Source: Candidatus Dojkabacteria bacterium (lineage in GTDB: Bacteria; Patescibacteriota; Dojkabacteria; SC72; JAHDCA01). From it: DNA of 64,000 nt. The notes below the pieces were generated by a model. The model saw only the letters and a program-made list of their open reading frames with translations, was not told the DNA's origin and did not search any database. Position numbers and translations under genes: made by a program. The number at the start of each line of letters is the position of its first letter. Positions within the stretch are counted from its first letter, which is position 1. Where the stretch lies: contig CP129478.1 of the NCBI GenBank assembly GCA_030583845.1, positions 513,835 to 577,834 of the forward strand, read 5' to 3'. Positions 1 through 63,698 of this stretch are shown one piece after another.

Positions 1-186
1 GAAGTGGATGATGTTGTGGTTTCATTTGATAAATACCAGGGCGATTACGATAAAATTCCTGAGTTTATGACTATCGAGGCGGATGATGAAGATGAGGTGT
101 ATGAATGGGCAGAAAGGCTTGGATATGCGAAGAAGGATTGTGTGGCAATTTCTATCATTGACCTAATCAATAAGTATCACAAGTAG
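1..186 (+). CDS. hypothetical protein, C-terminal fragment (ORF open at window start)
   Basis: Open frame from base 1 to stop at 184-186; acidic small C-terminus; no recognisable motif. Confidence 0.3.
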   Translation, partial: EVDDVVVSFDKYQGDYDKIPEFMTIEADDEDEVYEWAERLGYAKKDCVAISIIDLINKYHK

Positions 187-933
187 ATGTCATTTGAAAA
201 TCGCGGATCACCCAAACTAAAGCCATACCTGAAGAAACTGGACTACTCATATGCATTAGGGATTGAACCTACCCTCGATCTGATGAAGCACCAGCCCGAC
301 CGGGTTATGAAAGTGCTTTTCCGCGACGGAGCAGATGAAAACGAGCCTGGTTGGAGAGATGTAATGAAATTCTGCGTGGAAAATAGGATTGAGTATGAGT
401 TCAACTACAAGGCGATCGATAAGATTTCGTATATCAAGACCACTTCAGTAATTGGGATTTATCATAAGTATCAGCCCGAATTAGACCCTTCGCACAATCA
501 TGTGGTGCTAGTTAACCCTATGAATATGGGAAATATCGGCACTGTGATGCGTAGTATGGCGGCATTTGGATTTCATGATCTCGCAATAATCCGCCCTGGG
601 GTAGATATCTTTGACCCGAAGGCGGTTCGTGGGTCGATGGGGGCATTTTTTCAGCATCGGTTTGAGTATTTCGAGGACTTTGAGGCGTACTCGACGCGGT
701 TTGGTGGACATGCGCTCTATCCATTTGTGCTGGGTGGATCGGCAAATCTTGTTGAGGTTGGAATTAAGTCGCCATATGCGCTGATTTTTGGTAATGAAAC
801 GAATGGACTTGGTGATGAGTATAAGCAGGTGGGTACACCGGTTTATATACCTCATTCTGTGAATGTGGAATCGCTCAATCTTTCTGTGGCCGCCTCTGTA
901 GCGATGTTTACCCTGTACTCGAGGGCTATATAG
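187..933 (+). CDS. SpoU/TrmH-family RNA 2-prime-O-methyltransferase (RlmB-like)
   Basis: C-terminal SPOUT motifs LVNPMNMGNIGTVMRSMAAFG, IFGNETNGL, SLNLSVAASVAMF; N-terminal substrate-binding-like domain; about 248 aa as in RlmB. Confidence 0.75.
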   Translation: MSFENRGSPKLKPYLKKLDYSYALGIEPTLDLMKHQPDRVMKVLFRDGADENEPGWRDVMKFCVENRIEYEFNYKAIDKISYIKTTSVIGIYHKYQPELDPSHNHVVLVNPMNMGNIGTVMRSMAAFGFHDLAIIRPGVDIFDPKAVRGSMGAFFQHRFEYFEDFEAYSTRFGGHALYPFVLGGSANLVEVGIKSPYALIFGNETNGLGDEYKQVGTPVYIPHSVNVESLNLSVAASVAMFTLYSRAI

Positions 934-936
934 AAT

Positions 937-1084
937 GGGGCGTCCCGGAACCGGGACGCCCTGGTTGGGTCAGCCCTAAACTGCTCAGACCCTCCGACCA
1001 CCCGACCACTTGCTTCGCAAGTGGGTCGGGCGAGTGGTCGGAGGGTCTGAGCTCTTAATCTCGGAGCAACACTGGGCTGACCTG
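937..1084. repeat. composite GC-rich palindromic repeat (REP-like): hairpin GGGCGTCCCGG-N3-CCGGGACGCCC (937-961) followed by an outer GGTCAGCCC/GGGCTGACC pair enclosing an imperfect long palindrome built on CTCAGACCC...GGGTCTGAG (984-1053)
   Basis: Direct reading of inverted symmetry; the same modules recur at 23595-23648, 24645-24668, 51628-51652 and 63336-63359. Confidence 0.55.
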
Positions 1085-1106
1085 CTGAAGTGGAGTATAC
1101 TTAAGG

Positions 1107-1637
1107 ATGTCTGACAACAATCACTCTTACACATTGGATCAGATCGAGGAGCTCGCCACAAAGGTGCGTGAGCGATTTAATATACCCAGCAGCAATTTCG
1201 TAGATGTAACTGAACTAGCCGACTCGCTCGGTTATGATGTATATGATGCAGAATTCGAGGTAGACGATATTGTCAGCACCCTGTGCGATGAAGATGACGA
1301 GGGCGAAAAGACAATCTATGTAAATCAGAAGCTCGACGAGTCAGAAAAGCGCTTTAATATTGCCAATCAGGTCGCACATGTCGTGTTAAATCACCACGCT
1401 TCCCTCCAGTCAAACGAGTATCTTGTCGAGTATCGCCCAAGGTATAAAGGGGTCTCCGACACACTCCAATATGGTGAGAAAATGCAGGCTATACTATTGG
1501 CGGCAGCTATCTTATTGCCGCATGATCTCGTAGTAAGTGCCTGGGGAAAATATAAAAATGTGGACATTATCGCAGAATACTTTAAAGTGCCGAAAAAGCT
1601 TGCAGTCGTACGCCTTGACGCATTGGGGTTAATATAA
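1107..1637 (+). CDS. hypothetical protein (weak ImmA/IrrE-like region AHVVLNHH, no clear HExxH)
   Basis: 176 aa ORF, acidic N-terminal half; the only motif resemblance is degenerate. Confidence 0.4.
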   Translation: MSDNNHSYTLDQIEELATKVRERFNIPSSNFVDVTELADSLGYDVYDAEFEVDDIVSTLCDEDDEGEKTIYVNQKLDESEKRFNIANQVAHVVLNHHASLQSNEYLVEYRPRYKGVSDTLQYGEKMQAILLAAAILLPHDLVVSAWGKYKNVDIIAEYFKVPKKLAVVRLDALGLI

Positions 1638-1649
1638 GAGTGTAAATAT

Positions 1650-2132
1650 ATGGCAGAAACTAGTGGGGAAACAAAGAGAGAAAAGCAGAAGGTAGCCGAG
1701 AAGATATTGCCACAGATACGCGATGAGGTCATGGCTGTTGCGACTGAACAGTCGGCTCCAACTCCAGTAGCACCTCCGCTACCAGTTGTGAATAAAACGA
1801 AGCGTACCAACGACCTTCAATATTTCCAGGAGGATTTCTCGAAATATCTACGAAGCATCATCCAGCTCCGCGACAAGTATGCTAACCGTCTTTATGCACT
1901 GCTGGTTTTTGAGATTGCGGTAATGTTTTTGTTTGTAATGTTGGCAGGGCTTGGGGTGCTCGAGCTAGAGCAGTGGCTGGTGCTGATTGTGGCGGAGTCG
2001 ATAATCGTGAAAACATTTCTCACAATACAGATTATTGTAAAGAATCTATTCCCGAACAAAAATCTGCTAGAATTGCTTATACAGGGCAGCGGTAGAAGTG
2101 TGTCGGAAGGGACATCTGAATCGGAAGAGTGA
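1650..2132 (+). CDS. hypothetical membrane protein
   Basis: C-terminal hydrophobic helices (LYALLVFEIAVMFLFVMLAGLGVL, IVAESIIVKTFLTIQIIV). Confidence 0.4.
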   Translation: MAETSGETKREKQKVAEKILPQIRDEVMAVATEQSAPTPVAPPLPVVNKTKRTNDLQYFQEDFSKYLRSIIQLRDKYANRLYALLVFEIAVMFLFVMLAGLGVLELEQWLVLIVAESIIVKTFLTIQIIVKNLFPNKNLLELLIQGSGRSVSEGTSESEE

Positions 2133-2187
2133 GCTCTTCGGGCTGAAAGTATGGGGCAGGGTAGTCAATAAGTTTAGTTATGGGAAA

Positions 2188-3165
2188 ATGTACAACGACC
2201 CAGCAATCGCAAATCTTCTCGAGCCAACTGGCACGCAGGCATCACCAGGTGAGCCAGCCAATTCTCGTGATATTGCCAAATTTTTCATTAAACGCGGCTA
2301 TGAAGTAATGGGCATCAACCAGATATGGAAAAGCGTCACCGGCCACCTAAAGAAAGATGGTGTTGAGTACTATCTTAAGTTGGCGAACAGCGGTGCAAGC
2401 TCCGAGCTTATCAAAAACGAGATCTCCTGGAATGAGACAATTCACAAATTAGCCACAGAAAAAGGCTTCGACAGGCTTATCGTCCCAGGGATAGAGGATC
2501 AAGGTGAATATGAGGGTAGTGTATTTTTCTTGACCAAGTACTACTTTGGCACACCGCTAGCCAATAAGAACTATACAAAAGTCGGGGATATAGCCAAGTA
2601 TGCGGACACAATTATCGACATTGCGCACCTGATAAATGATGGTGGAGTTGTACCTCTATCGATTGATAGTCAGCACAAGCAGAAAGATGGCTTAAAAGAG
2701 CATGAGATGCAAGGCTTCCTCAATGTGGCAAAAGGGTATGCTGCCGAGATAAAAGAGAATGATATGGCACCGTTACTAGCTATTGTCGATGAATACCAGA
2801 AGGCATTTGACTTCTCGCTCTGTCACAATTCGTTTGAGCCAAAAGAGATGATTCCAGAGGGTGACAAGATTGTTCTGATCGATGCAGAGCAGGCGAGCGC
2901 ATATTCGCCGAAGTATTACGACATTGCATACTTCTTTACCAAGACTTATGTCGCTGGAAGATTGCCCGACGTAGCAAAGGATCTTATACGTAAGTTTAAA
3001 GAGAAGCTCAGCGATGATGAGAAATCTGCCTTCGATGGGCTGGTGCGTCCGTCAATTGCGCTAAGCGCCATTCACTGCTTCCTCAAATCTGAGCAGGATG
3101 GCAACCACTTCTTCGAGTATCACAACAAATTCTTAGAAGAATTTAAAGCAGGTCTTCCATACTAG
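2188..3165 (+). CDS. phosphotransferase-family protein (APH/choline-kinase-like kinase fold)
   Basis: Catalytic-loop-like LCHNSFEPKEMI (compare HGDxHPGN) and VLIDAEQAS (compare IDxE); start placed at ATG 2188 to avoid overlapping the upstream gene (track ORF begins 2098). Confidence 0.55.
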   Translation: MYNDPAIANLLEPTGTQASPGEPANSRDIAKFFIKRGYEVMGINQIWKSVTGHLKKDGVEYYLKLANSGASSELIKNEISWNETIHKLATEKGFDRLIVPGIEDQGEYEGSVFFLTKYYFGTPLANKNYTKVGDIAKYADTIIDIAHLINDGGVVPLSIDSQHKQKDGLKEHEMQGFLNVAKGYAAEIKENDMAPLLAIVDEYQKAFDFSLCHNSFEPKEMIPEGDKIVLIDAEQASAYSPKYYDIAYFFTKTYVAGRLPDVAKDLIRKFKEKLSDDEKSAFDGLVRPSIALSAIHCFLKSEQDGNHFFEYHNKFLEEFKAGLPY

Positions 3166-3328
3166 TCTGATGGTAGACCCCGCCTATTTAAACTAGATTG
3201 TTCTGCCGACGCACTGTGTTGTCTATTCTGCTTTTGCAGAGGTATTTGTGTGAAAGGTGGATTATAGGTTTGAGATTGGGGAGCTTTTTCATTAAAATTC
3301 TTGAATAGGGACTCTTCAGCTATAGAAT

Positions 3329-3358
3329 ACTCCGGGATAAAAGCCGGAGTTTTCTTTT
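3329..3358 (+). terminator. rho-independent terminator after the kinase-like gene
   Basis: Stem ACTCCGG/CCGGAGT with 8-nt loop followed by TTTTCTTTT. Confidence 0.5.
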
Positions 3359-3425
3359 AGGTAAACAAGATGATGATGGTGAAATTTACTATCTGTTCGA
3401 AAAGGTCATCGAGCGTTAAAAATTA

Positions 3426-4274
3426 ATGAACCAGACCCCGATACAGAATTACAATTTACAATCCACCCTGCTTGGTGGGCAATCTTTCGGCTGGGATAAG
3501 GTCGGGGAGTGGTTTTACGGCTTCACTACCGAGGGTGCTGCAAAGTTAAAAATTCATGAAGATAATCTTATCTGGCAGACATATCCTGTAAGCGACAATT
3601 GGGAATGGCTGAGCAATTATCTAGGCTTGAGCCGAAATTATGAAAAGATCATTAAATTGATCGCAAAAGATGAGCACTTGATTGCCGCGATCGAAGCCTA
3701 TCCAGGATTGAGACTGTTAGAACAGCCTTTTGAAGACACTCTGGTTGGCTTTATCTGCTCATCCACCAAAAGCATTCCAGGAATCAGGCAGTGTGTTCGG
3801 CTAATGGCATCACGTTATGGAGAGAAAGTAGTTATTAATGATGAATATTTTAATGAAATTTCACTCTTTCCGAAATTAGAGCGACTTCATGAAATCTCAG
3901 AAGCTGAATTGCGCGAGTCAAAGGTAGGCTTCAGGGCGAAATACCTGAAAGCAGCAGCTGAGCAGATGGTAGACCATGATCTATCAGGAGAAATTACCAA
4001 AAGCGGGACAGCCTCCCAAGCACGTGAAAAATTAATGAAAATCCCAGGAGTAGGGGATAAAGTGGCCGACTGCGTGCTCGTTTATGGGCTGCAATTTCAT
4101 GAAGTCACACCGTTTGATATCTGGGGGCAGCGTTTTGTGCAGAAGTATTACGGACTACCTGAAAATGCGAAGTATTCACAGATGCGAGAGTGGTCGGAGA
4201 GCTATCTTGGGGAGTATGCGGGTTGGGCTGGGCAGTTTCTTTTTGAGTATATTCGGAATATTGATTGGAGGTGA
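3426..4274 (+). CDS. ogg: 8-oxoguanine DNA glycosylase/AP lyase, OGG1 type
   Basis: N-terminal LLGGQSFGW (OGG1 LPSGQSFRW); FICSS; HhH-GPD motif KIPGVGDKVADCVLVYGL with catalytic Lys/Asp positions; C-terminal YAGWAGQFLF as in OGG1. Confidence 0.8.
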   Translation: MNQTPIQNYNLQSTLLGGQSFGWDKVGEWFYGFTTEGAAKLKIHEDNLIWQTYPVSDNWEWLSNYLGLSRNYEKIIKLIAKDEHLIAAIEAYPGLRLLEQPFEDTLVGFICSSTKSIPGIRQCVRLMASRYGEKVVINDEYFNEISLFPKLERLHEISEAELRESKVGFRAKYLKAAAEQMVDHDLSGEITKSGTASQAREKLMKIPGVGDKVADCVLVYGLQFHEVTPFDIWGQRFVQKYYGLPENAKYSQMREWSESYLGEYAGWAGQFLFEYIRNIDWR

Positions 4275-4351
4275 GGGCATATTGTATTAGCATTGACGGG
4301 TACCTATTAATATGCTACGATACCTAATGCTAATATATACGTCATAATACT

Positions 4352-4612
4352 GTGGAGTTAGCTACAAGCATAACAAGTCAGGGACAAGTAACGATTCCCG
4401 TAAGTATCAGAAGGCATTTGGGATTAAGGCCATCTGATAAGGTCGAGTTCCTAAAAGAGAATGGTAGAGTCTATATAAAGCCATCAAAGGACTTTCTGCA
4501 GCTTAAGGGCACTCTAAAAAGTAAGCGCAAGTATACAGATTCTGAATTAGATAAGTTGATACTTGAACAGGTCGCCCATGAGCAGAAGAAAAAAGTCGCT
4601 AATCGACACTAA
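4352..4612 (+). CDS. vapB: AbrB/SpoVT-type antitoxin (VapB-like), GTG start
   Basis: SpoVT/AbrB-like swapped-hairpin signature QVTIPVSIRRHLGL...KVEF; directly upstream of and overlapping a PIN gene. Confidence 0.55.
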   Translation: MELATSITSQGQVTIPVSIRRHLGLRPSDKVEFLKENGRVYIKPSKDFLQLKGTLKSKRKYTDSELDKLILEQVAHEQKKKVANRH

Positions 4613-4991
4613 CATTCTCCTTCGCTTTCTCACTCAAGATGTTAAAAGTCAGGCAGATGCAGCCGAGAGACTTTTCGAGAGCAGTGAGGATGGGTCACTG
4701 TTCATACCGGATCTCGTAGTTGCCGAAATTGTCTTCATTCTCCAATCTTCCGCTTACGGGAAAGATAGAGGTGAGATCGCTCAAATCATAAGTGGTATCG
4801 CTAATTTCAAGAAATTTGACCTAGACAGGACGCTTATACTTAGGTCAATTGACATCTACCAATCCAGCGCGCTGTCGTTTACCGATTCATATATTGTTGC
4901 ACACGCCCAGTTGGGCAGAAATGATACTGTGTATACATTTGATCGTAAGATGCACAGGTCGGAGCCTTCGAGTGTAAAGATTCCAAGCTAG
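4563..4991 (+). CDS. vapC: PIN-domain toxin VapC
   Basis: N-terminal LIDTNILLRFL with acidic residues spaced as in PIN; 142 aa; C-terminal TFDRK; overlaps the antitoxin ORF. Confidence 0.65.
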   Translation: MNRSPMSRRKKSLIDTNILLRFLTQDVKSQADAAERLFESSEDGSLFIPDLVVAEIVFILQSSAYGKDRGEIAQIISGIANFKKFDLDRTLILRSIDIYQSSALSFTDSYIVAHAQLGRNDTVYTFDRKMHRSEPSSVKIPS

Positions 4992-5578
4992 CTCGTGATC
5001 GTATAGTGGTCGTACTTATATCCACTATGATCCTCAGCCGGTATAGTAAGCAATCTCAGGTAGAGCCAAAATAGTTGTACAAATACCGCTCCTGTGTACC
5101 TATCTAGTTCTTTGATTATATCTTGATATAGTGAAAGCTCGTCAGGAGAGAGTGGCTGACACGGGTTAGCCAGTGCAAATTCCTGAACCTTAAGCCAGTG
5201 AGTGAACCGTATTCGTTCTTCCTCAAACCGCTGCTTGTCAAATTGTCCGGGTAACAAGTGATGAAGTCCACACTCACCGATAATTCTTTTTGCATCTTCA
5301 ACCTGCTCAGCGAAGTGAGGAAAGCTCATCCAAACTGAAAAAGCATCGTTCGCTTGTACCGTATCAGGGTCAATACATTCGGCGCGAAAGCCTAAATTGT
5401 TTATCACTAAATTTTCGTTCTTGATCTGCCATATACAGAACATCAAAGCAGCGTCACCATCAGATAATAAATGCTCATAACATTGATGTCCTACCAATTC
5501 CAACCTCAAAGCCCATAAAACTTCGTCGGCTGGGTTCTTAGGCAATGCAGATTTCAGGAAGCTTTGTTCATCTCCCAT
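4988..5578 (-). CDS. hypothetical protein
   Basis: 196 aa ORF, no recognisable motif. Confidence 0.4.
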   Translation of the reverse strand: MGDEQSFLKSALPKNPADEVLWALRLELVGHQCYEHLLSDGDAALMFCIWQIKNENLVINNLGFRAECIDPDTVQANDAFSVWMSFPHFAEQVEDAKRIIGECGLHHLLPGQFDKQRFEEERIRFTHWLKVQEFALANPCQPLSPDELSLYQDIIKELDRYTGAVFVQLFWLYLRLLTIPAEDHSGYKYDHYTITS

Positions 5579-5642
5579 GTCTAAATATCACTTATCTATA
5601 TGTCCCCACATACATATGAAGCTGTCAATTTTACACCAAAAA

Positions 5643-5651
5643 TGGTATAAT
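5643..5651 (+). promoter_or_regulatory. candidate extended -10 element (TGGTATAAT) for the tmRNA gene
   Basis: TGnTATAAT 12 nt upstream of the tmRNA 5-prime GGGG; a possible -35 TGTCAA lies 17 nt upstream. Confidence 0.3.
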
Positions 5652-5662
5652 AGCACTGTTAT

Positions 5663-6094
5663 GGGGACGTAAGGCTTCGACAGGAGTATTACGTTCAGAG
5701 CCACAAGTGGAGGCTCCAGCTCTGTAAAACTGGAAACGACTGTAAGTGTCGAAAAACTATCAAACGCTTTCAATAAAGTAGTTGCGTTCGTTCAGAACCC
5801 TATGGGTGCTGTTCAGCCTAACTATATGTTTGCGTAAGCAAGCATTTGAAGGTCTAGCCCTGAGGGGCTGGCAATCTTGATTTCTCCTCCCGCTGAGGAA
5901 TCCTGATTGGTCATTAGCGGGATATAGCCTGGTTTGTGATAACTGCGTATCAGGCCGACCACAAAAGTCAGTTGTGCGGCCGCTCTGTTCCGCTAACCTA
6001 ATAGGCGCGGCTTTAAAAACAGGTTAGCTACACTTGTACAATGGTTCTGTACTTAGCTTCTTGGACGTGGGTTCAATTCCCACCGTCTCCACCA
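5663..6094 (+). ncRNA. ssrA: tmRNA (SsrA)
   Basis: 5-prime GGGGACGTAAGGCTTCGACAGG and 3-prime GGACGTGGGTTCAATTCCCACCGTCTCCACCA form a tRNA-Ala-like acceptor/T-arm with a G3:U70 pair and encoded CCA; internal tag ORF GCG..(or GCT at 5808)..AVQPNYMFA-TAA ends at 5837 (NY + hydrophobic tail as in ANDENYALAA); smpB is present at 53417. Confidence 0.75.
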
Positions 6095-6135
6095 TTCTTC
6101 GCTAAAGCTTCGAATGGTCTCGCCTATGGCGAGCC

Positions 6136-6501
6136 ATGAGAAGGTTTACTGAAGAATGGGTGCACTCCATAGCTCGGAGAGCGAAGGAGTGCAGTTTTCA
6201 AAAAATTCACGAACTTTTAATAAGTGTGGCATACAATGATTACAGTATGCGTTACTATGTGTATATCCTAAGAAGTGAGAACTACCCTGATAAAACCTAT
6301 GTGGGTTACACATCCGACTTAAGGCGTAGACTTTATAGACACAATGGCGGATTTGTCGCCTCTACCCAACGATTCCTACCATGGAGGCTTGAGACATATA
6401 TTTCATTTAGTGATAGGCTGATGGCCATGAGATTTGAGAGGTACTTAAAGACAGGTTCTGGTATAGCATTCAAGAGAAAACGATTCTCAAAAAGTAGGTA
6501 A
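6136..6501 (+). CDS. GIY-YIG nuclease-family protein
   Basis: YYVYILRSENYPDKTYVGYTSDLRRRLYRHNGG matches the GIY-YIG core (GIY..YVG..R...H); the core begins at alternative ATG 6247; immediately downstream of tmRNA. Confidence 0.55.
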   Translation: MRRFTEEWVHSIARRAKECSFQKIHELLISVAYNDYSMRYYVYILRSENYPDKTYVGYTSDLRRRLYRHNGGFVASTQRFLPWRLETYISFSDRLMAMRFERYLKTGSGIAFKRKRFSKSR

Positions 6502-6520
6502 GTCCTGCTATAATCCAAAT

Positions 6521-7393
6521 ATGCAAATCATCCGCACAAAGACCAAAGACGGAATACACTACGAAGGAATACTCACAGGCGATCCAGCCACCTCCGACTC
6601 AATAATCATCCACATCCACGGCATGGCCGGAAGCCCAACCCTCAACCAATACTACACAGAAATGTATAAAGATTACCCAGCAGCCGGCTGGCATTTCCTC
6701 GCCGTGACACACAGAGGTACTGGAGTCGCAACCGAATTCACAACTGACGATGGCGCTACAGTTCTTGGTAACGCATATGAAAAATTCGAAGATTGTATTC
6801 ATGATATTGAAGCCTGGGTAAACAAAGCAGCCGAGATGGGTTACAAAAGGATCTGGCTTCAATCCCACAGCCTTGGACCAACGAAAGTAGCCTACTATCT
6901 GAGCCAGACAAAAGACCCGAGAATAGAGGGTGCTATATTTATTAGCCCGTCAGACATGGTGGGCCTCATAAAGTCAGGCAACGAGAGTGAGAATTACAAG
7001 GCGATGATCAGTGAAGCAAATGATCTTGTAAAGCAGGGCAAGGGTGATCAGCTGCTTAGCCAAGATATATGGGGATTGGAGAAGCTATCGGCAGATACCT
7101 ACCTCAATTTCTTCGCAGAGGGTTCGAATCTAGGTGTATTTAACTATAACGGACCAGCTGACGGATGGGGCGTAGTAAACTCACTCACTTTACCGGTGCT
7201 TGCGATAGTTGGGACTGCTGATGTGGGTGTTGTTGAGTCAAAAAACCCGCATGAGGCGATGAAGCAGCTTGAGGGTGAGTTGAAGAATTCGCCAAGGGTG
7301 AAGACGATAGTGTATGAAGGGGCTGATCATAGCTTTGATGGTTTTGGTGGTCGGATTGTGGAAGATGTTTTGGAGTTTGTTAATCAGTCTTAA
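6521..7393 (+). CDS. alpha/beta-fold hydrolase
   Basis: HGMAGSP oxyanion region, nucleophile elbow SHSLG, C-terminal GADHSF (His of triad). Confidence 0.6.
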   Translation: MQIIRTKTKDGIHYEGILTGDPATSDSIIIHIHGMAGSPTLNQYYTEMYKDYPAAGWHFLAVTHRGTGVATEFTTDDGATVLGNAYEKFEDCIHDIEAWVNKAAEMGYKRIWLQSHSLGPTKVAYYLSQTKDPRIEGAIFISPSDMVGLIKSGNESENYKAMISEANDLVKQGKGDQLLSQDIWGLEKLSADTYLNFFAEGSNLGVFNYNGPADGWGVVNSLTLPVLAIVGTADVGVVESKNPHEAMKQLEGELKNSPRVKTIVYEGADHSFDGFGGRIVEDVLEFVNQS

Positions 7394-7482
7394 TGGCTAC
7401 TGGATTGCTACTGCCAGAATCTCTCCGATCCACTAAAAACTGAACTGATGTATAATCCAATATCATTTTACCCACCAACCCC

Positions 7483-7920
7483 ATGACACAAGAAAGAAAC
7501 AAAATATTCGCTGCCGTCTACCTCATACTCCTCAGAGACAAGAAAGTCGCAATGATCAGGCGATACAACACAGGATACCAAGATGGGAATTTCACACTAC
7601 CTTCAGGCCATATCGATGCAGGTGAGTCTGCCATTGCAGCAACCCTCAGGGAAGCAAAAGAAGAAACAGGCGTAGATGTTCAGCCTGAAACACTCAATCT
7701 CGCACATCTCATCCATAGAAACTCCACGGACAGAGTGTATGCCGATTTCTATTTCGTCACTGAGAGTTGGGATGGTGAGCCAGTGAATAACGAGCCCGAG
7801 AAAGCTGATCGGCTAGAATGGTTTGACCTCAATGATCTGCCGCAGAATATTATCCCGGATGTGAAGACGGCTATTGAGCTGTTTAGCAAGGGGGATAATT
7901 ACTCGGAGTTTGGGTGGTAG
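7483..7920 (+). CDS. NUDIX hydrolase
   Basis: Perfect Nudix box GHIDAGESAIAATLREAKEETGV. Confidence 0.8.
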   Translation: MTQERNKIFAAVYLILLRDKKVAMIRRYNTGYQDGNFTLPSGHIDAGESAIAATLREAKEETGVDVQPETLNLAHLIHRNSTDRVYADFYFVTESWDGEPVNNEPEKADRLEWFDLNDLPQNIIPDVKTAIELFSKGDNYSEFGW

Positions 7921-7921
7921 T

Positions 7922-8371
7922 CTACCCCTGCCCCCAATCCAACAAATCCGTAAACCTCAAGTAATACCCAAACGGATCCTCCATCCGAAAATCATACCAA
8001 ACATGCTCATGATCCCTCTTCTCCTTCATCTCCTGCACCACAAATTTCCCAAGCACACCCTGAACCTCACCATACTTCTTCCTCACATCCTTCACTGGCA
8101 CAGTTAGCTCAACACCATACCCCCTCTTCGTATCCCTCGGAAAATTCTTAAAATATGACTGATCATACACCTTCTCATCCCCACCATAGAAAGCTAGTAG
8201 GGTATCCCCAGCCGGATCTTTATGAACCATCGTCAAATATCCGCAATACTCCTCTGTAATCGGGTCTTCAACAGCGATCTTGAAACCTAGCTTGCCATAG
8301 AAATCTTTGGCGACATTGAAATCGGGTATATGGAGCTCGAGGAGGAGGTTGTTGTTGAGTGGTTTGTTCAT
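7922..8371 (-). CDS. VOC-family (glyoxalase/bleomycin-resistance fold) protein
   Basis: N-terminal LHIPDFNVAKDFYGKLGFKI beta-alpha-beta-beta-beta module; 149 aa. Confidence 0.55.
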   Translation of the reverse strand: MNKPLNNNLLLELHIPDFNVAKDFYGKLGFKIAVEDPITEEYCGYLTMVHKDPAGDTLLAFYGGDEKVYDQSYFKNFPRDTKRGYGVELTVPVKDVRKKYGEVQGVLGKFVVQEMKEKRDHEHVWYDFRMEDPFGYYLRFTDLLDWGQG

Positions 8372-8529
8372 GGTTAATTATAGGCTGAAAAGTCGATCAT
8401 TTCCATCGAACGTGCTCATCTTCTCTCATGATCAACGGTCGATTTGTATTTCGGCTATGGGCGTCGCTATTTTAGTTGTTGCGTGCTATAATCGGTAACT
8501 GCTATAGGCTAAGCTAAGCACAAGGAAAT

Positions 8530-23594: not shown

Positions 23595-23648
23595 GGTCAG
23601 CCCGAAGTAGGGCGTCCCGGCTCCGGGATGCCCTACTTCGGGCTGACC
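23595..23648. repeat. 54-bp near-perfect palindrome (26-bp arms, one mismatch) combining GGTCAGCCC and GGGCGTCCCGG modules
   Basis: Left arm GGTCAGCCCGAAGTAGGGCGTCCCGG, right arm CCGGGATGCCCTACTTCGGGCTGACC; lies in a divergent intergenic region. Confidence 0.6.
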
Positions 23649-24612: not shown

Positions 24613-24644
24613 GCCGTTGAACCCGGCCAGGTCGAACCAAAAGT

Positions 24645-24668
24645 GCTCAGACCCGATCGGGTCTGAGC
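24645..24668. repeat. 24-bp perfect palindrome GCTCAGACCCGATCGGGTCTGAGC (identical copy at 63336-63359)
   Basis: Direct reading; exact second copy; related imperfect copy at 984-1053. Confidence 0.6.
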
Positions 24669-24716
24669 GACGATACCCGATCTTGTTACGAAGCCATTTC
24701 CAATGCGTATAAAGCA

Positions 24717-50770: not shown

Positions 50771-53435
50771 TAGAGGCATGAAAATTCATCTTAAAGATTT
50801 TCTGGTCGATAGTCCCGACAGATCCTCGGTAACCAAGATCTTCCGCTCAGACCTCTCGGGTGATATTAGAGGTCACCTGGTAATACTGCTATCGATTAAG
50901 GCAAAAGGAAAAGTTGATGTAAACCAGATCGCGCCATTTATTATCAATGGTGTTGGTCTTGGTGCCAAAGCAGCAAAATCTCCGATCGAGTGTCTAAAAT
51001 TGGGTCTAGAGCAGGGTGAACGACAGCTGCGTGACCTTATTCGCCACGATGGAGAGGCAGAGCTAGGCCTTGATGTGAATCTCTCAATGGTGCTGCTCCA
51101 AGAAGGCAAAGCCTATATTGGTATGCTTGGCTCTCATGAGATCCGCCTATACCACGATGAAAATCTGGTAGATGTCACAGAAATCTTAGAAACCAACAAT
51201 GTCCAAACTTGTAGCCTAGTGATTAAGGATGAAGATTATTTCGTACTTTCATCTTCACGAGCCTTCTTTGACCAGCTGAGCTCTGCTACATCAGGGAGTG
51301 CCAAAGAGCTTTTCAACGATATTTCAAACACGCAGAGTGTTCTTGAGCAAGGTGAAGGACTACTTCTACTCTCGACAGGTGTAGATTTTGAGAAGTTTGC
51401 AGAGGAATATGCCGCGCCATTTGCGGCTGATCGTGACGACCAGCTTGTTGCACCTCACAATTCAGCGCTTTTTGATGTAGTGCTGACTGAGGATGAGCTA
51501 AATGTTAGCGATATTAAGGAAGAAGTTGAAGAGGAGCTAGAGGAAAAGTTGGAAGAAAAAGAGGTTGAGACAAACTCCTTCTTGGATAGTCATGCAGATG
51601 AGCCAGAGGTAGGGGCAGCCCAAACTAGGGCGTCCCGGACCTGGGACGCCCCAGAAGCTGAGCCGGCTCCCAGAGCGACTTCTCGAGATGTTTTAGAAAC
51701 TGAAACCGAAAAATATGTAGAGGAGGTCGATGAGGATCAGCCAGCAAAAGTGCAAGAAGTGCCTGTAAAGTCCAGCTCATATACAGAAAAAATGCGAGAT
51801 ACGTTCAAACCGCTGAGCGTTACGCCAACACCACCCGCAAGTGTGCCCCCTGCCATCTCGACCTCGGCCGCTCCACAAGATATCAAGAAGTTCAAAGATA
51901 TCCGTAAGCCACTGCGTGAATTTAAGTCAGGCGTAGATGTAGAAGACCTGAAAGGGAAATTCCGCACAGTTTCCAACAAGACTCAGCAAAAATTAAGTCC
52001 GGTAGTCAATAAAGTGGGTACAAACCTCTCTAGGAAGTATGACACAGTTTCTACTCGGGTTACCAATAGGCTCTCGACAAAATATGGTCGAAGTCCATGG
52101 TTTAAACGAATCATGGCAAAATTAAGCCAGGCTCGAGTAAGCAGCGGTAAGGCACCGGGACTAAGACTTGGTGAGTACAGAGAGAGGGCAAATCGAAGGA
52201 GCAAATTCACCAAGATTGCACTGGCGTTTGTTATTGTTGCGCTAATCTTTAGCGGATGGAGAATTACCCAGAATTGGAAATATAAGTCAGAAGTCCACAG
52301 CAAATTTGTGAGCTATCTGTCAGCTGTTGAGGGTAGCCTAAGTGAGGCCGAAGCAAAGGTGAATAGTAGCCCGGAAGAAGCCATCCTAGCACTGTTTAAT
52401 GCACAAAAGAAGATTGACCAGATACCTGTAAGCCTAGATGACCTGTCAGAAGATGATCGTGAGGCATATAGCGACCTTCAAGGACGTGTACTGGGAATCT
52501 CCGACCAGGTAAATAAGGTGACGGTACTTTCTGAAGATTCTGGCAACATAAGTCTATTTGCAGATGGCAGGATTGATTTCGACTCAAAGTCTGCACCAAC
52601 TGACATTGCCATTTTTAGAAACTCTGAGCTGGTAGAGCAGCTATTGATTACCGACAGAGGTACAAGCTCGGTCTACCGAATCCCGACCGTTGGAGGTGAT
52701 GTGAAGAAAATTCTTGACACAAACGGTGTTGTTAAAACCCCGATGTATATCGATGTAGGAACCAATGGTATATATATTTTTGACGAGACAGCAGGTGTAT
52801 TGAGAGCTGCGTTTGGTGACTCAGATAGTGAGATCACCACATTCACGACGCTGACTGGGGCAGGCCGAGATCAATTTGAAGGTGCAAGTGTAGATGAGTT
52901 TGCCGTATTTACCGCCGCAGACAATCTTTACGTCTTGAGCAAGAGTGCAAACTCTATTTTCAAGTCTCAACGAGCGTCCAGCGGTTCTTACGGATTGCCA
53001 TTTGTGTATTATGAAAATGCTGTTTTGTCCAGCGGTGAAGATCTTTTTGCTGACTTCAATATCTATGTGATCACAGGCGGGGCTACAGGGCTAAATCGTT
53101 ATACATTTGATAGCAGGCGGGGAGCATTGACGGAGTTCCCAGTGGAAGTTGCTGAGCTACGCGGATCATTTGAAAATCTAACCGCCGGATACACAGGGGC
53201 TGATCTGACCAAAGAGCTATATCTATTTGACAATGCAACCAAGAGGATAATAATCTTGGCGAAGCCTAGTGAGGGTGATAATGCAAATGCTAGCGTGATG
53301 GTGATGCAGAAACAGTTTGAGTATAGAGGGGACAATGATGAAATGTTTGAGAATGTCTCAGATATAGTTGTGGATGATGCAGAGCAGTTCATGTATGTCC
53401 TTGATGGGACTAAAGTGTGGAAGATCACCCTGTGA
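50763..53435 (+). CDS. large bitopic membrane protein (cytoplasmic about 470 aa, acidic/low-complexity linker, one TM at about residue 480, extracytoplasmic about 400 aa), function unknown
   Basis: TM FTKIALAFVIVALIFSGW; carries an in-frame copy of a palindromic repeat in its acidic linker. Confidence 0.5.
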   Translation: MHNRGMKIHLKDFLVDSPDRSSVTKIFRSDLSGDIRGHLVILLSIKAKGKVDVNQIAPFIINGVGLGAKAAKSPIECLKLGLEQGERQLRDLIRHDGEAELGLDVNLSMVLLQEGKAYIGMLGSHEIRLYHDENLVDVTEILETNNVQTCSLVIKDEDYFVLSSSRAFFDQLSSATSGSAKELFNDISNTQSVLEQGEGLLLLSTGVDFEKFAEEYAAPFAADRDDQLVAPHNSALFDVVLTEDELNVSDIKEEVEEELEEKLEEKEVETNSFLDSHADEPEVGAAQTRASRTWDAPEAEPAPRATSRDVLETETEKYVEEVDEDQPAKVQEVPVKSSSYTEKMRDTFKPLSVTPTPPASVPPAISTSAAPQDIKKFKDIRKPLREFKSGVDVEDLKGKFRTVSNKTQQKLSPVVNKVGTNLSRKYDTVSTRVTNRLSTKYGRSPWFKRIMAKLSQARVSSGKAPGLRLGEYRERANRRSKFTKIALAFVIVALIFSGWRITQNWKYKSEVHSKFVSYLSAVEGSLSEAEAKVNSSPEEAILALFNAQKKIDQIPVSLDDLSEDDREAYSDLQGRVLGISDQVNKVTVLSEDSGNISLFADGRIDFDSKSAPTDIAIFRNSELVEQLLITDRGTSSVYRIPTVGGDVKKILDTNGVVKTPMYIDVGTNGIYIFDETAGVLRAAFGDSDSEITTFTTLTGAGRDQFEGASVDEFAVFTAADNLYVLSKSANSIFKSQRASSGSYGLPFVYYENAVLSSGEDLFADFNIYVITGGATGLNRYTFDSRRGALTEFPVEVAELRGSFENLTAGYTGADLTKELYLFDNATKRIIILAKPSEGDNANASVMVMQKQFEYRGDNDEMFENVSDIVVDDAEQFMYVLDGTKVWKITL
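51628..51652. repeat. GGGCGTCCCGG-N-CTGGGACGCCCC palindromic repeat copy inside the CDS 50763-53435 (translated in frame as AQTRASRTWDAP)
   Basis: Same hairpin module as 937-961 and 23611-23635; sits in an acidic linker. Confidence 0.5.
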
Positions 53436-54712: not shown

Positions 54713-57313
54713 ATGCTTTTAACTAGAGAAATGTTTATGTTGACTGTCCCACAAAATTCTCAATCGAATCTAGAGATCTACGCCTTTGATAATGATGGCG
54801 GCGTTTTGTCGCAGGTTGTCGGGCCATCTCCATCGAGTGAGGATGTTGAGAATAATGTCGACACGGTTTATCCGGATGATAGCTTTGCCCAAGAAAGCAA
54901 TGGAGCCGCTATCTTCACCTGGGTGCTGCTGGTGGTTTTCCTCCTGTTGCTTATCGGATCTGCGGCTGGACTGCTCTACCTTTACATGAACCAGCTGAAG
55001 CGAAAAGACCGCGAGCATAAGACGAAAGAGGGTGTACTGTTCGAGGTGAAAGTGCCACGAGGCAATGAAACTGAGGTAGGTGTGGCCGAATCGATGTTTG
55101 CAAACCTTTATGGAATAGGCGGAGTTGGCGACGGCATTAAGAAATATATGACAGTGAGCAACAGCATCAGCTTTGAGATTGTAGGATTACCAGGAGAAAT
55201 CCGCTTCTTCGTTTATGCGCCGAAGAAATTCGCTGACCTCGTTGAGAAGCAGATACTCGGCTCCTATCAGGATGCTGAGATTACAGTTATCGATGAGCAC
55301 AATATCTTCCACGACGATGCACAGGTTGCTTACGCACAGCTGGACATCACAGATGAGCGGTACTATCCGATAAAAGTTGCTGAAGATTTTAAAGGCGATC
55401 CAATTGCAAATATCCTCTCAACCATCAGCAAGATGGGCGACAAAGAGGGCGCAATGATACAGATTGTGATCTCTCCTGCAGGATCTAGCTGGCAGAAATC
55501 AGGACGCAAATTTGTATCCAGCGTTGAAAGCAACAATGCCGATCCCGAGAAGAAACGAATGAACGTCAGCCAGGAGCAGCTCCAGGCCATTTCAAAGAAG
55601 ACCAGCAAGATCGGCTTTAACACCGCTATTCGTATCGTCGCCAGCTCGCCAAATGTCGAGATCGCAAAAATGCACGTCAACAACATTATTGGTGCATTCG
55701 ACCAGTTCTCAAACCCTGGCATCAACAACCTAAAGAAAACCAAGATTCGCACCGGCGATGAGAAAGAGTTTATGCACAACGTAATCTATCGACGCATGCC
55801 GCTAAAGACCAAGACAGTCTTAAATATCGAAGAGCTCGCCTCAATCTACCACTACCCGAATCAGGAGGTGACCACTCCAAACATTAACTGGCTGCTCGCC
55901 AAAGAGGCTCCCGCCGCCAACTGGGTCAATTCAGATATCCAAGGCCGCGACACGATCTGGATAGGTAACAACTATTTCCGAGGGAATGTTCAGCCGATCT
56001 GTATGGCTCGTGAGGATCGAATGCGACACAGTTATGTAGTTGGACAGACAGGCTCGGGTAAGTCGTGGTTCCAGCTGCGCATGATTATGCAGGATATCTA
56101 TAATGGTGACGGTGTATGTGTAATGGATCCGCACGGCTCTTTGGCCGAAATGGTGCTAGAGAGGATTCCACATGAGCGAGCCGAAGATGTTATCTATTTC
56201 AATGTAGCCGACTTTGAGAGGCCACTAGGCTTCAACCTGATGGATTTCCAGAACGAGCAGGATAAGCACCGCGTGGTAAACGGATTTATCGGATTGCTAA
56301 AGAAGCTTTTCGACCCAAATGAGCAGGGTATTGTCGGTCCAATCCTCGAGCGTGCCGTCCGAAACGCTATGCTCACCGCAATGTCCGAAAAAGGCTCTAC
56401 GCTAGTTGAAGTTGTACGTATCCTGACCGACGAGAAATGGGTAAAGGAGAAGTGGCTCCCAATAATCCAGGACGACCTTGTAAAGCGATACTGGACCGAC
56501 CAGATAGCCAAGACTACCGAGCAGCAGAAATCAGAGACGCTCGGCTATATCGTCTCGAAATTTGACCGCTTCGTCACAAACTTGGCAATCCGCAACATCA
56601 TCGGCCAGTCCGAGTCATCATTTAATGTGCGTCAGGTAATGGACGAAGGTAAAATCCTTGTAATCAACCTCTCGAAAGGCTTGATCGGTGAGGAAAATGC
56701 ACAGTTCTTGGGTATGCTGGTGGTACCGAAGATTATGTCTGCTGCTTTGAGCCGTGAAGATCTGCCTGAAGATCAGAGGCGCGACTTCTTCTTCCACGTC
56801 GACGAGTTCCAGAACTTCGCAACAGAAGAGTTCGCAGGAATTCTCTCAGAGGCTCGTAAATATCGACTCTCGCTAAATGTCGCAAACCAGTATATCTCGC
56901 AGATGCCAGAGAAGGTGCGTGATGCTGTCTTCGGTAACGTCGGCTCAATGTTTATCGGCCGCGTTGGCGCTGAAGATGCAGAGTTCCTCCAGAAGCAGTT
57001 TGAGCCAACTTTAACCTCCAACGACCTGCTCAACCAGCCAAATATGCATTACTATGCCAAGATGCTCACGGATGGTAAGTATTCACCTCCATTCTCGCTC
57101 GACCCGAAGTATGGTCCGAAATTCCCAGAATCTGGCTTCAATCTACCGGTAAATCAAGATGTCGCGGAGCTTATCAAGAAGCTATCCCGATTGAAGTATG
57201 GCCGCGACGTAAACATTGTGGAGTCGGAGATGAATCAGCGAGCCGATCTTGCCGTAAACCCTGGTGCTCAATCGGACAATATGTCGGCGCCACCGCCGTT
57301 GTCGTTTAAGTAG
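54713..57313 (+). CDS. T4SS coupling-protein-like ATPase (VirD4/TraG/TraD family)
   Basis: N-terminal TM; Walker A VGQTGSGKSW; VMDPHGS; FFFHVDEFQNF; C-terminal ...ARKYRLSLNVANQYISQ... resembling TraG-D_C. Confidence 0.6.
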   Translation: MLLTREMFMLTVPQNSQSNLEIYAFDNDGGVLSQVVGPSPSSEDVENNVDTVYPDDSFAQESNGAAIFTWVLLVVFLLLLIGSAAGLLYLYMNQLKRKDREHKTKEGVLFEVKVPRGNETEVGVAESMFANLYGIGGVGDGIKKYMTVSNSISFEIVGLPGEIRFFVYAPKKFADLVEKQILGSYQDAEITVIDEHNIFHDDAQVAYAQLDITDERYYPIKVAEDFKGDPIANILSTISKMGDKEGAMIQIVISPAGSSWQKSGRKFVSSVESNNADPEKKRMNVSQEQLQAISKKTSKIGFNTAIRIVASSPNVEIAKMHVNNIIGAFDQFSNPGINNLKKTKIRTGDEKEFMHNVIYRRMPLKTKTVLNIEELASIYHYPNQEVTTPNINWLLAKEAPAANWVNSDIQGRDTIWIGNNYFRGNVQPICMAREDRMRHSYVVGQTGSGKSWFQLRMIMQDIYNGDGVCVMDPHGSLAEMVLERIPHERAEDVIYFNVADFERPLGFNLMDFQNEQDKHRVVNGFIGLLKKLFDPNEQGIVGPILERAVRNAMLTAMSEKGSTLVEVVRILTDEKWVKEKWLPIIQDDLVKRYWTDQIAKTTEQQKSETLGYIVSKFDRFVTNLAIRNIIGQSESSFNVRQVMDEGKILVINLSKGLIGEENAQFLGMLVVPKIMSAALSREDLPEDQRRDFFFHVDEFQNFATEEFAGILSEARKYRLSLNVANQYISQMPEKVRDAVFGNVGSMFIGRVGAEDAEFLQKQFEPTLTSNDLLNQPNMHYYAKMLTDGKYSPPFSLDPKYGPKFPESGFNLPVNQDVAELIKKLSRLKYGRDVNIVESEMNQRADLAVNPGAQSDNMSAPPPLSFK

Positions 57314-57436
57314 GGCCGCTAACTTATAGTGCGCGGTTGTGACTCGCACATAAAGCATTCTCAGGAAATCATTAAACGTGGATTGGAAATTTTACTATCG
57401 TACTTAACCTTCAGCGCACTATAAGTTAGCGGCCCT
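57312..57436. repeat. perfect 23-bp inverted repeat (AGGGCCGCTAACTTATAGTGCGC / GCGCACTATAAGTTAGCGGCCCT) flanking a 79-bp spacer between convergent genes
   Basis: Direct reading; the arms abut the stop codons of the VirD4-like gene and holA. Confidence 0.6.
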
Positions 57437-58376
57437 ACATTATCGCAATCAACAACGTCAGCCCAAGCTTCCCATCTATCTCGCCAGTTTTCATCTGGTA
57501 GTCGAGATTGGCCAATTTGTCATACAAGGTAAATAGCCTCTCATAGCTCGTGTCGTCGGCAGCTTTGACTAGGGCAGGGACAGTAAAAGGTGGGATTTTA
57601 AGCTCTTTGGCGATCGCTGAGCTGTCATATCCCTCGTCTCGTAGGCTCTTGCACAATAGAAGTGAGCGAGTATTGCGCACAATCATTGCTAAGATATAGA
57701 TCGGGTCGACTCGATTCTGAAATAGGTTCTCGAGGATCTCGATTGGCGGATAATCGTTGCGACCATTAATGCTGTCGATCAATGCCCAAATATCGCTCTC
57801 ATACGTATCGATAGCTGTATCTTTGATTAATTGAGCGGTGACAATCTTCTCTCCGGAAAGAGAGATCTTTTTTAGACTATTCATGAAGCGCTCTGGCTCG
57901 TAATTTGAGATTTCGGCAAGCGAGTAGAGTGTGGCTCTGTCAGCTTTTATATCGGGGTAATCCCGCTTGATCTCCTCGGCGGCCCAGCTCATAAACGATT
58001 GCTTGTTTAGTGGTGCAGATTCAAACGCCGCTTTCTGGTTGCCAAAAAATTTAAAAAACTTGGTGTTTGAGGCAATTTTCTGATCCTCCCACAAGATGGT
58101 GTTGCGACTCTCGTCCTCATTGCTTAGGAAATTCTTGAGCCTCTCAAAGAGCTGCTCTTTCTGCTTATTTCGGTAGAGGCGTTTGAGTAGGATGTTTTTG
58201 CCCGGCGAAAACATATCGACAGTCTCGCAGATTTTTATAATCTCGCCGGCATCAACTTTTTCGCAGTCCAGCACGACTTTCCCGAAATCGGGTCTCTCCT
58301 CGCAAAATTTCTGAAATGCACTCCTGGCTGCACGCAAGGATAGATAGCTCTCTTTGCCGTGATATAGCTGAAACAT
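57435..58376 (-). CDS. holA: DNA polymerase III delta subunit (HolA-like)
   Basis: N-terminal MFQLYHGKESYL, KNILLKRLY and overall about 313 aa helical organisation typical of delta subunit. Confidence 0.5.
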   Translation of the reverse strand: MFQLYHGKESYLSLRAARSAFQKFCEERPDFGKVVLDCEKVDAGEIIKICETVDMFSPGKNILLKRLYRNKQKEQLFERLKNFLSNEDESRNTILWEDQKIASNTKFFKFFGNQKAAFESAPLNKQSFMSWAAEEIKRDYPDIKADRATLYSLAEISNYEPERFMNSLKKISLSGEKIVTAQLIKDTAIDTYESDIWALIDSINGRNDYPPIEILENLFQNRVDPIYILAMIVRNTRSLLLCKSLRDEGYDSSAIAKELKIPPFTVPALVKAADDTSYERLFTLYDKLANLDYQMKTGEIDGKLGLTLLIAIM

Positions 58377-63280: not shown

Positions 63281-63335
63281 ATGTCTTAATGTATTCTTTC
63301 GATAAATTTAGCTTTGTCTGCGCCCGATCAGAGAT

Positions 63336-63359
63336 CGCTCAGACCCGATCGGGTCTGAG
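63336..63359. repeat. second exact copy of 24-bp palindrome GCTCAGACCCGATCGGGTCTGAGC with adjacent related arms
   Basis: Identical to 24645-24668; lies upstream of alaS. Confidence 0.6.
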
Positions 63360-63698
63360 CACTTCGGGTCTGACCCGACCCGAGGGCAAATAAAAACCGC
63401 CCTTCTCACATGCAAAACGTCTGCAATTCAGACACCTCGCATATAATAAGGACGGTTGTTACCGTGGTACCACCTTAATTTCCATCTATGTTGCCACAGA
63501 TGACTTATCAACTGATTTCAAACCAGTCCTCTATATTTTGTAGCTACATTTAGAGTTGTGTATCTAGTCGGGTGTTTCTCCTTATGAGAGGTCACTTTCC
63601 TAGCTCGCTCACAGTTGGCCAGACCGAAGTCCTCTTACTGATCTGCGCGATCTACAGGGGTAATTCTATTGGAATGACGGCCTAATGTCAATTTTCGC

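What the first reader, a model, noticed from the sequence alone, without database searches (positions are those of the whole stretch)
937..1084. Family of modular GC-rich palindromic repeats (REP-like), one copy inside a coding region
Three recurring modules are visible. The first is GGGCGTCCCGG-N3-CCGGGACGCCC. The second is GGTCAGCCC/GGGCTGACC. The third is the 24-bp perfect palindrome GCTCAGACCCGATCGGGTCTGAGC. They occur alone or nested at 937-1084, 23595-23648, 24645-24668, 51628-51652 and 63336-63390. The 24-mer is identical in two loci, which implies recent spread or strong constraint. One copy is embedded in frame in the acidic linker of CDS 50763-53435. The elements are much more GC-rich than their surroundings and mostly sit at gene ends. 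They could be targets of a REP-associated transposase or structured RNA motifs.
Basis: seen in the sequence. Interest (0 to 1): 0.5.

Follow-up and report, generated by a model that had tools for sequence, protein, structure and literature searches.

The report
GC-rich hairpin repeats in Dojkabacteria
A tiny (about 1 Mb) candidate-phyla-radiation bacterium carries a family of short, very GC-rich hairpin repeats that are present at six or more places where its nearest available relatives have nothing or only a small trace, one of them in frame inside a protein; they look like REP-type miniature repeats, a known kind of element not so far reported for this group.

Summary
Three modules recur far above chance, and they form very stable hairpins (z about -11). 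Corrections: the module 1 spacer is 2 nt, not 3. The exact shared unit of module 3 is 30 nt (AAGT + 24-mer + GA). A further exact copy lies about 840 nt left of the window.

The window comes from a Candidatus Dojkabacteria MAG (1.04-Mb contig, 45.6% GC). The modules build two element types on a common frame, GGTCAGCCC-N6-[core palindrome]. Five insertion sites could be compared with syntenic relatives at 62-83% protein identity. In the relatives all five sites are empty or hold only a small possible relic. About 85 kb of relatives' DNA contains none of the modules.

The elements lack U-tracts. One sits between divergent promoters, one in the alaS T-box leader downstream of its terminator, and one (54 nt, 18 codons) in a variable acidic linker. 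They are therefore not terminators that evolved in place.

Best reading: a lineage-restricted REP/REPIN-like family of non-autonomous palindromic repeats. No RAYT or other transposase was found among the window ORFs scanned. The rest of the genome could not be read. I file it as a new member of a known kind, of moderate interest.

The parts
938..961 (+). Module 1 core alone: perfect 11-bp stem, 2-nt loop (GGGCGTCCCGG AA CCGGGACGCCC). It starts 5 nt after the TrmH/SpoU stop codon.
968..1082 (+). Composite 115-nt hairpin. Outer frame: GGTCAGCCC (968-976) / GGGCTGACC (1074-1082). Tag: TAAACT. Module 3 arms: 983-992 / 1043-1052. Inner 50-nt hairpin: 993-1042, containing a tandem CCGACCAC duplication.
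   Evidence: Logan contigs break at its centre. The relatives' SpoU-IrrE spacer is 21 or 64 nt, against 173 nt here.
23595..23648 (.). Type I element: 54-nt near-perfect hairpin, GGTCAGCCC GAAGTA [module 1] TACTTC GGGCTGACC. It lies between the -35 boxes of the divergent cohesin/dockerin and nfo promoters.
   Evidence: Absent from L138; a small possible relic in L136.
24630..24670 (+). Type II element: GGTCGAACC AAAAGT [module 3 24-mer] GA. It includes the exact 30-nt unit 24641-24670. It lies 18-33 nt after the nfo stop codon and upstream of the ECF sigma gene.
   Evidence: Absent in L136 and L138.
51613..51666 (+). Diverged type I element (54 nt = 18 codons) in frame in the acidic variable linker of CDS 50778-53435. 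It encodes roughly GAAQTRASRTWDAPEAEP.
   Evidence: Homologues P0002 and P0003 have gaps or no similarity there. No module is present in their DNA.
63315..63390 (-). Type II composite on the minus strand: GGTCAGACCC GAAGT [24-mer] GA plus two small flanking hairpins closed by GCCC/GGGC. It lies between the alaS T-box terminator (ends about 63391) and the alaS ATG (63280).
57310..57438 (.). Possibly related 129-nt element with 25-bp perfect inverted arms (GTAGGGCCGCTAACTTATAGTGCGC). Its TAG is the stop codon of the upstream gene. It lies between convergent genes.
   Evidence: Relative L127 has a 22-nt spacer with a short version. A solo arm lies at 35799-35815.

Best explanation
These are a lineage-restricted family of small, non-autonomous, hairpin-forming dispersed repeats of the REP/REPIN type, in the roughly 1-Mb genome of a Candidatus Dojkabacteria (CPR) bacterium.

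Architecture: two different 24-nt core palindromes sit on a shared asymmetric frame, GGTCAGCCC + a 6-nt tag (RAAGT or AAACT). The frame can close into 54-115-nt hairpins.

Shown:
- The elements are extra DNA at five sites compared with syntenic relatives.
- Copies are identical or nearly identical at unlinked loci.
- They are found only in harmless positions: just after stop codons, between two divergent promoters, in a 5' leader downstream of its riboswitch terminator, and in frame in a disordered linker.

Inferred:
- They spread by copy-and-insert through a single-stranded hairpin intermediate. An enzyme encoded elsewhere in the genome recognises that hairpin, most probably an HUH/Y1 (RAYT or IS200-like) transposase.
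- Selection then removes harmful insertions.
- Transcribed copies make very stable RNA hairpins. These may incidentally buffer mRNA 3' ends, but they do not terminate transcription efficiently.
For: Repetition far above chance.

The exact unit is 30 nt with non-palindromic flanks (AAGT...GA) at three loci. This shows common descent rather than convergent hairpins.

The 54-nt elements at 23595 and 51613 are homologous over their whole length.

Sites empty in relatives:
- SpoU-IrrE.
- Cohesin-nfo and nfo-sigma.
- The CDS linker.
- The alaS leader.

About 85 kb of relatives' DNA has none of the modules and no GC-rich perfect hairpins.

No U-tract follows any copy, whereas the alaS T-box terminator of the same genome has a canonical U-tract.

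All five orientable copies point the same way as local transcription and GC skew.

Intragenic and clustered REPs, and REP families with variable self-complementary inner parts, are documented (PMC3733652).
Against: - No Y1/RAYT or any other transposase domain in the window ORFs scanned. The genes of the flank beyond the right end that were annotated carry none either.
- No target-site duplication is visible.
- The flanking tag is AAGT/AACT, not the GTAG or CGTC of described REP superfamilies.
- Copy number is known only from about 75 kb (7 loci).
- The nearest relatives are distant (62-83% aa). 'Insertion' versus 'loss in relatives' therefore rests on parsimony.
- A possible relic at the cohesin-nfo site in L136 suggests that site is old yet still a near-perfect hairpin. 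That points to maintenance by selection or conversion rather than simple recent transposition.
Confidence: 0.55

Rival explanations
1. Functional hairpins that evolved or are maintained in place: RNA 3'-end stabilisers, factor-dependent terminators, or binding sites for one nucleoid or regulatory protein. On this view they are repeated because they serve the same factor, not because they are mobile.
For: - Two copies lie 5-33 nt after stop codons.
- Hairpins are kept nearly perfect.
- A possible relic at the same site in a relative at 83% nfo protein identity hints at long persistence.
- The orientation of tagged copies follows transcription.
Against: - The same 30-nt and 54-nt sequences, including unpaired flanks, occur at unlinked loci.
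- Copies lie between divergent promoters, inside a CDS, and in the leader of the presumably essential alaS gene, downstream of its own terminator.
- No U-tracts.
- Absent from orthologous sites of relatives.
Confidence: 0.15
2. Palindromes generated and spread without a dedicated transposase. Hairpin-templated copying or template switching during replication and repair extends and perfects quasi-palindromes. Short-patch recombination or gene conversion then copies them between sites.
For: - The inner stem at 993-1042 contains a tandem 8-bp duplication on both arms.
- The 57310-57438 element looks like a long perfected version of a short ancestral hairpin seen in L127.
- No transposase nearby.
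Against: Template switching explains growth of a local palindrome. It does not explain identical 30-nt units with asymmetric flanks at three distant loci, or a 54-nt copy inside a CDS.
Confidence: 0.12
3. Miniature inverted-repeat transposable elements (MITEs) derived from a DDE-type insertion sequence and mobilised by it.
For: - Terminal inverted symmetry (GGTCAGCCC...GGGCTGACC) with a variable interior.
- The 129-nt element has 25-bp arms.
Against: - No target-site duplications at the three sites with good empty-site comparisons.
- The elements are almost entirely self-complementary.
- The 24-nt cores also occur alone.
- No parent IS in the window.
Confidence: 0.08
4. Fragments of foreign high-GC DNA, for example actinobacterial terminator hairpins taken up from a host or neighbour, that were then duplicated.
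For: The only exact module 1 matches among 185,579 species genomes are single hairpins in high-GC genomes, nine Actinomycetota and one Acidobacteriota. One has the identical 24-mer with the AA loop.
Against: My own composition estimate gives about 12 chance matches against 17 strand matches observed. The flanks, tag and frame are not shared.
Confidence: 0.03

Closest known systems
REP / REPIN elements (repetitive extragenic palindromes; GTAG- and CGTC-tagged families, Di Nocera et al. 2013, PMC3733652; REPIN-RAYT systems, Bertels & Rainey 2011)
   Same: - 20-40-nt GC-rich palindromes.
- Dispersed, mostly extragenic and often just after stop codons.
- Several sequence types coexist in one genome.
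- Clustered and nested arrangements.
- An asymmetric short tag next to the stem.
- Occasional in-frame intragenic copies.
- Lineage-restricted.
   Different: - The tag is AAGT/AACT rather than GTAG or CGTC.
- Two unrelated cores share one outer frame.
- The long forms are single nested hairpins, not two inverted REPs.
- No RAYT was found in the readable 75 kb.
- The host is a 1-Mb CPR genome of 45% GC. I found no report of REPs there (negative literature search only).
Rickettsia palindromic elements (RPE)
   Same: Palindromic repeats in a small genome that insert in frame into protein-coding genes and are tolerated as extra peptide segments.
   Different: RPE-1 elements are about 100-150 bp, are not GC-rich islands and are frequent inside genes. 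Here only 1 of 7 loci is intragenic. No sequence similarity was tested.
Intrinsic (Rho-independent) terminators
   Same: A GC-rich stem-loop close to the 3' ends of some genes.
   Different: There is no U-tract, the same sequence recurs at many loci, and copies occur in non-terminator positions.
PATE / IS200-IS605-derived miniature elements
   Same: Hairpin-based, no target-site duplication, and a possible strand or orientation bias.
   Different: No IS200/IS605 ends, TnpA or TnpB were detected. The elements are much shorter.

Membership tests
REP / REPIN-RAYT | Short (20-40 bp) imperfect palindromes, multicopy, dispersed, mainly extragenic | tested here: met
   7 loci in about 75 kb. The cores are 24 nt. 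6 of 7 loci are extragenic.
REP / REPIN-RAYT | Conserved unpaired terminal tetranucleotide GTAG or CGTC (PMC3733652) | tested here: not met
   The flanks are AAGT (4 copies), AACT (2) and AATG (1). GTAG occurs only at 23607-23610, where it is paired with CTAC. CGTC lies inside the module 1 stem, not at an end.
REP / REPIN-RAYT | [quoted passage not shown] | tested here: inconclusive
   The long forms (54 and 115 nt) are frame arms enclosing one core palindrome, not two complete REPs.
REP / REPIN-RAYT | Cognate single-copy RAYT (Y1 HUH transposase, PF01797) flanked by the repeats | tested here: inconclusive
   None among the window ORFs scanned, nor among the annotated genes of the flank beyond the right end. 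About 93% of the genome was not readable with these tools.
REP / REPIN-RAYT | Tens to hundreds of copies genome-wide | not testable with these tools
   The source contig (1,036,382 bp) could not be fetched beyond the window plus 10 kb.
MITE (DDE-type) | Terminal inverted repeats matching a parent IS, plus target-site duplication | tested here: not met
   No duplication is seen at the SpoU-IrrE, cohesin-nfo or alaS-leader junctions when compared with empty sites. No IS in the window.
Intrinsic terminator | GC-rich hairpin followed by a U-tract at the end of a transcription unit | tested here: not met
   No T-run follows any copy in the transcribed orientation. The consensus scan (run on 1-20000 only, so it covered only the first two elements) flagged just 938-961, and only on the non-transcribed strand. 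Copies lie between divergent promoters, in a leader and in a CDS.
Any Rfam RNA family | Score at or above the family gathering threshold | tested here: not met
   Only generic hairpin (miRNA-precursor) matches, far below threshold.
Rickettsia palindromic elements | Sequence membership in an RPE family | not tested
   No RPE reference sequences were compared. The resemblance is behavioural only.

The most novel reading that the evidence does not exclude
A self-propagating population of nested GC-rich hairpin repeats persists in an ultra-reduced CPR genome that encodes no RAYT or IS200-type enzyme. It would spread by a mechanism not yet described for REPs, such as hairpin-primed or template-switch copying, or an unrelated nuclease. 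It would occasionally be built into proteins as new linker peptides.
Probability: 0.15. Interest if true: 0.65.

Novelty: new member of a known kind. Interest (0 to 1): 0.36.

Why it matters
CPR/Patescibacteria genomes are regarded as streamlined and repeat-poor, and REP-type elements are described mainly from Proteobacteria and a few other phyla. A young, lineage-specific hairpin-repeat family in a 1-Mb Dojkabacteria genome shows three things. First, such genomes can still host intragenomic replicators. Second, it gives natural markers for strain typing. Third, it explains assembly breaks: short-read contigs end exactly at these palindromes. It also provides a clean example of an in-frame repeat insertion adding 18 residues to a protein linker. 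If the complete genome lacks a RAYT, it would become a test case for how such repeats spread.

Tried and rejected
- Module 1 pattern scan of 185,579 species genomes: only 10 single hairpins, nine in high-GC Actinomycetota and one in an Acidobacteriota MAG. By my composition estimate this is chance level, and the flanks are unrelated. The source genome is therefore not among the GTDB representatives, and the family is not widespread.
- Viral contig scans for modules 1 and 3: 0 hits.
- Metagenome scan for module 3 arms with a 0-30-nt loop: 114 loci. None has the GATC loop or any other module, and none is related to this organism. tblastn of the window ORFs hit only one locus, at 45% identity.
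- Rfam at gathering and at permissive thresholds: nothing specific.
- Terminator hypothesis: rejected on position and the lack of U-tracts.
- DNA-uptake-sequence idea: rejected, because there are several unrelated cores, few copies, and copies only in one lineage.
- Assembly artefact: rejected, because the sequences are identical in independent Logan assemblies.
- Attempts to read more of the source genome failed. The NCBI contig was never returned by the look-up of encoding contigs. Only Logan contigs came back, giving 0.85 kb on the left and 9.3 kb on the right.
- MAFFT alignments of the intergenic regions were noisy at this divergence. Pairwise global alignments were used instead.

Full report
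**What is there**

The window is bacterial chromosome of 45.6% GC. Exact protein matches identify it as a MAG of Candidatus Dojkabacteria (CPR, formerly WS6) on a contig of 1,036,382 bp.

The reported sequences are all present.
- Module 1 is GGGCGTCCCGG-N2-CCGGGACGCCC (spacer 2, not 3). It lies at 938-961 (perfect), 23610-23633 and 51628-51651 (one mismatch each).
- Module 2 arms, GGTCAGCCC/GGGCTGACC, pair at 968/1074 and 23595/23640. That is 4 hits against 0.18 expected.
- The module 3 24-mer, GCTCAGACCCGATCGGGTCTGAGC, is exact at 24645 and 63337. Its two arms at 983-992 and 1043-1052 enclose a further 50-nt hairpin.

Perfect GC-rich hairpins number 5 against 0.25 in dinucleotide shuffles. 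The folds are extreme. Region 936-1084 gives -104 kcal/mol (z -10.7). The stretch 23585-23660, which holds the 54-nt element 23595-23648, gives -57 kcal/mol (z -11.5).

**Anatomy**

Read in one orientation, the copies fall into two types on a shared frame.
- Type I is GGTCAGCCC + 6 nt (GAAGTA or AAACTA) + module 1 + 6 nt + GGGCTGACC. The copy at 23595-23648 is nearly perfect. The copy at 51613-51666 is diverged. Both are exactly 54 nt.
- Type II is GGTCAGMCC + (N)AAGT or AAACT + module 3. Copies are at 968-1082, 24630-24670 and 63375-63335 (minus strand).

The exact unit shared by three loci is 30 nt, AAGT + 24-mer + GA. The third copy is in Logan contig L001 at 3-32. That contig is 100% identical to the window where the two overlap, and the copy lies about 840 nt left of window position 1. 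The flanks AAGT and GA are not complementary to each other. The copies therefore share descent, not merely a convergent hairpin shape.

Module 2 and the module 3 arm are related (GGTCAG-CCC against GCTCAGACCC), and 63366-63375 carries a hybrid of the two. The inner hairpin at 993-1042 contains a tandem CCGACCAC duplication mirrored on both arms.

**Are they insertions?**

Syntenic contigs of the nearest available relatives were fetched. They share 62-83% protein identity with the window.
1. The SpoU-IrrE spacer is 21 nt (L139) or 64 nt (L140), against 173 nt here. The shared TATACTT...ATG part lies to the right of the 148-nt composite.
2. In the cohesin-nfo spacer, L138 aligns on both sides of the 54-nt hairpin and lacks it. 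L136 has at that spot only AAACTAGGCTGCCCGGCCTAATC, possibly a deleted relic.
3. In the nfo-sigma spacer, no element is present in L136 or L138.
4. In the CDS 50778-53435, the element lies in an acidic, indel-rich linker where both homologues have gaps or no similarity.
5. In the alaS leader, L127 has about 24 nt between the terminator U-run and the ATG, against about 110 nt here.

About 85 kb of relatives' DNA has none of the modules and no GC-rich perfect hairpins. Strains at 97.8-100% identity carry the elements unchanged.

**Position and function**

- No copy is followed by a U-tract. The genome's own T-box terminator upstream of alaS does have one. That T-box scored RF00230 at 38.9 bits, E 3e-7.
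- The 63315-63390 element sits downstream of that terminator, in the leader of the presumably essential alaS gene. It therefore cannot be an efficient terminator.
- The 54-nt element at 23595 lies 13-16 nt upstream of two facing -35 boxes. One is TTGTGG-17-TAAGAT on the minus strand. The other is TTGACA...TAAAAT on the plus strand, which is conserved in L136 and partly in L138.
- The CDS copy keeps the reading frame (18 codons).

These are all positions where an insertion does little harm. That is the pattern expected for selfish repeats filtered by selection.

**Mechanism**

None of the window ORFs scanned has a Y1/RAYT or any other transposase domain (Pfam columns). No target-site duplication is seen. 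The five orientable copies all point with local transcription and GC skew, which is only suggestive (p about 0.06).

I therefore infer, but cannot show, mobilisation in trans through a hairpin in single-stranded DNA, as for REP/RAYT or IS200-like systems. Template switching may contribute to stem growth. Evidence for that is the tandem duplication in the stem and the 57310-57438 element, which looks like a perfected long version of a short hairpin in L127.

**Comparison with known families**

The behaviour matches REP families as catalogued by Di Nocera et al. (PMC3733652). That catalogue includes coexistence of several types, complex self-complementary inner parts, clustering, stop-codon proximity and intragenic copies.

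Membership in the GTAG or CGTC superfamilies is not met, because the tag is AAGT/AACT. The RAYT criterion is untested for 93% of the genome. There is no Rfam family.

Module 1 has no counterpart in 185,579 species genomes beyond chance hairpins in high-GC genomes, mostly actinobacteria. Module 3 has no true counterpart in JGI metagenomes. Neither occurs in viral contigs. A literature search found no report linking REPIN/RAYT to Patescibacteria.

**Verdict**

This is a real, lineage-restricted family of REP-like GC-rich palindromic repeats in a CPR genome. I file it as a new member of a known kind, of moderate interest. The open point that could raise its interest is whether the complete genome encodes any enzyme able to move the elements.

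Noticed in passing
window 57310-57438 and 35799-35815; L127 16450-16480: A 129-nt element with 25-bp perfect inverted arms (GTAGGGCCGCTAACTTATAGTGCGC) lies between convergent genes. Its TAG is the stop codon of gene 54713-57313. The relative L127 has only a 22-nt spacer with a short version. A solo arm (TAGGCCGCTAACTTATA) overlaps the TAG stop of the M23 peptidase gene at 35799.
   Followed up: partly
window 63654-63445 (minus strand): A T-box leader upstream of alaS (RF00230, 38.9 bits, E 3e-7). It is well below Rfam's gathering score of 93, so standard annotation misses it. A canonical U-tract terminator ends near 63391.
   Followed up: partly
window 5663-6094 (+): tmRNA gene (RF00023, 111.8 bits). 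ARAGORN did not report it.
   Followed up: no
window 22504-22543: A 40-nt perfect AT-rich palindrome abuts tRNA-Ser(GCT) (22542-22634, minus strand). Three independent Logan contigs start just past it, at 22547.
   Followed up: no
window 25379-30881: The alpha-2-macroglobulin-like gene is split into two overlapping ORFs here (1504 + 374 aa). In strain contig L133 it is one 1833-aa gene. The two sequences differ by a single indel, so this is a frameshift or an assembly error in the window sequence.
   Followed up: partly
window 3414-3430, 3544-3560, 4023-4039, 23540-23549, 23722-23735, 25348-25364: A recurrent TTAATGAA / TTCATTAA motif at or near start codons. It may be a preferred translation-start context in this organism.
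   Followed up: no
window about 57300: Cumulative GC skew peaks and gene orientation flips from plus to minus at the convergent gene pair. This could be the replication terminus.
   Followed up: no
window 33640-33729: A 30-nt tandem repeat (three copies, two identical) lies near the 5' end of the AAA/Lon-lid ATPase gene 33557-35092.
   Followed up: no
window 36149-40287 and 44525-46456: A type IV secretion-like cluster: a VirB4/TraG-like ATPase, a PrgI-family protein, and five tandem T4SS-pilin genes. It is conserved in the relatives.
   Followed up: no
L001 end, L128-L131 starts (window about 1003): Short-read Logan assemblies from four different runs all break at the centre of the 968-1082 hairpin. 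These palindromes fragment short-read assemblies of this organism.
   Followed up: yes
L002, L003, L004, L010 (Actinomycetota): Four of the ten chance module 1 matches in high-GC genomes share the extended form GAA-GGGCGTCCCGG-NN-CCGGGACGCCC-TTC. This may be a recurrent terminator shape in those genomes.
   Followed up: no
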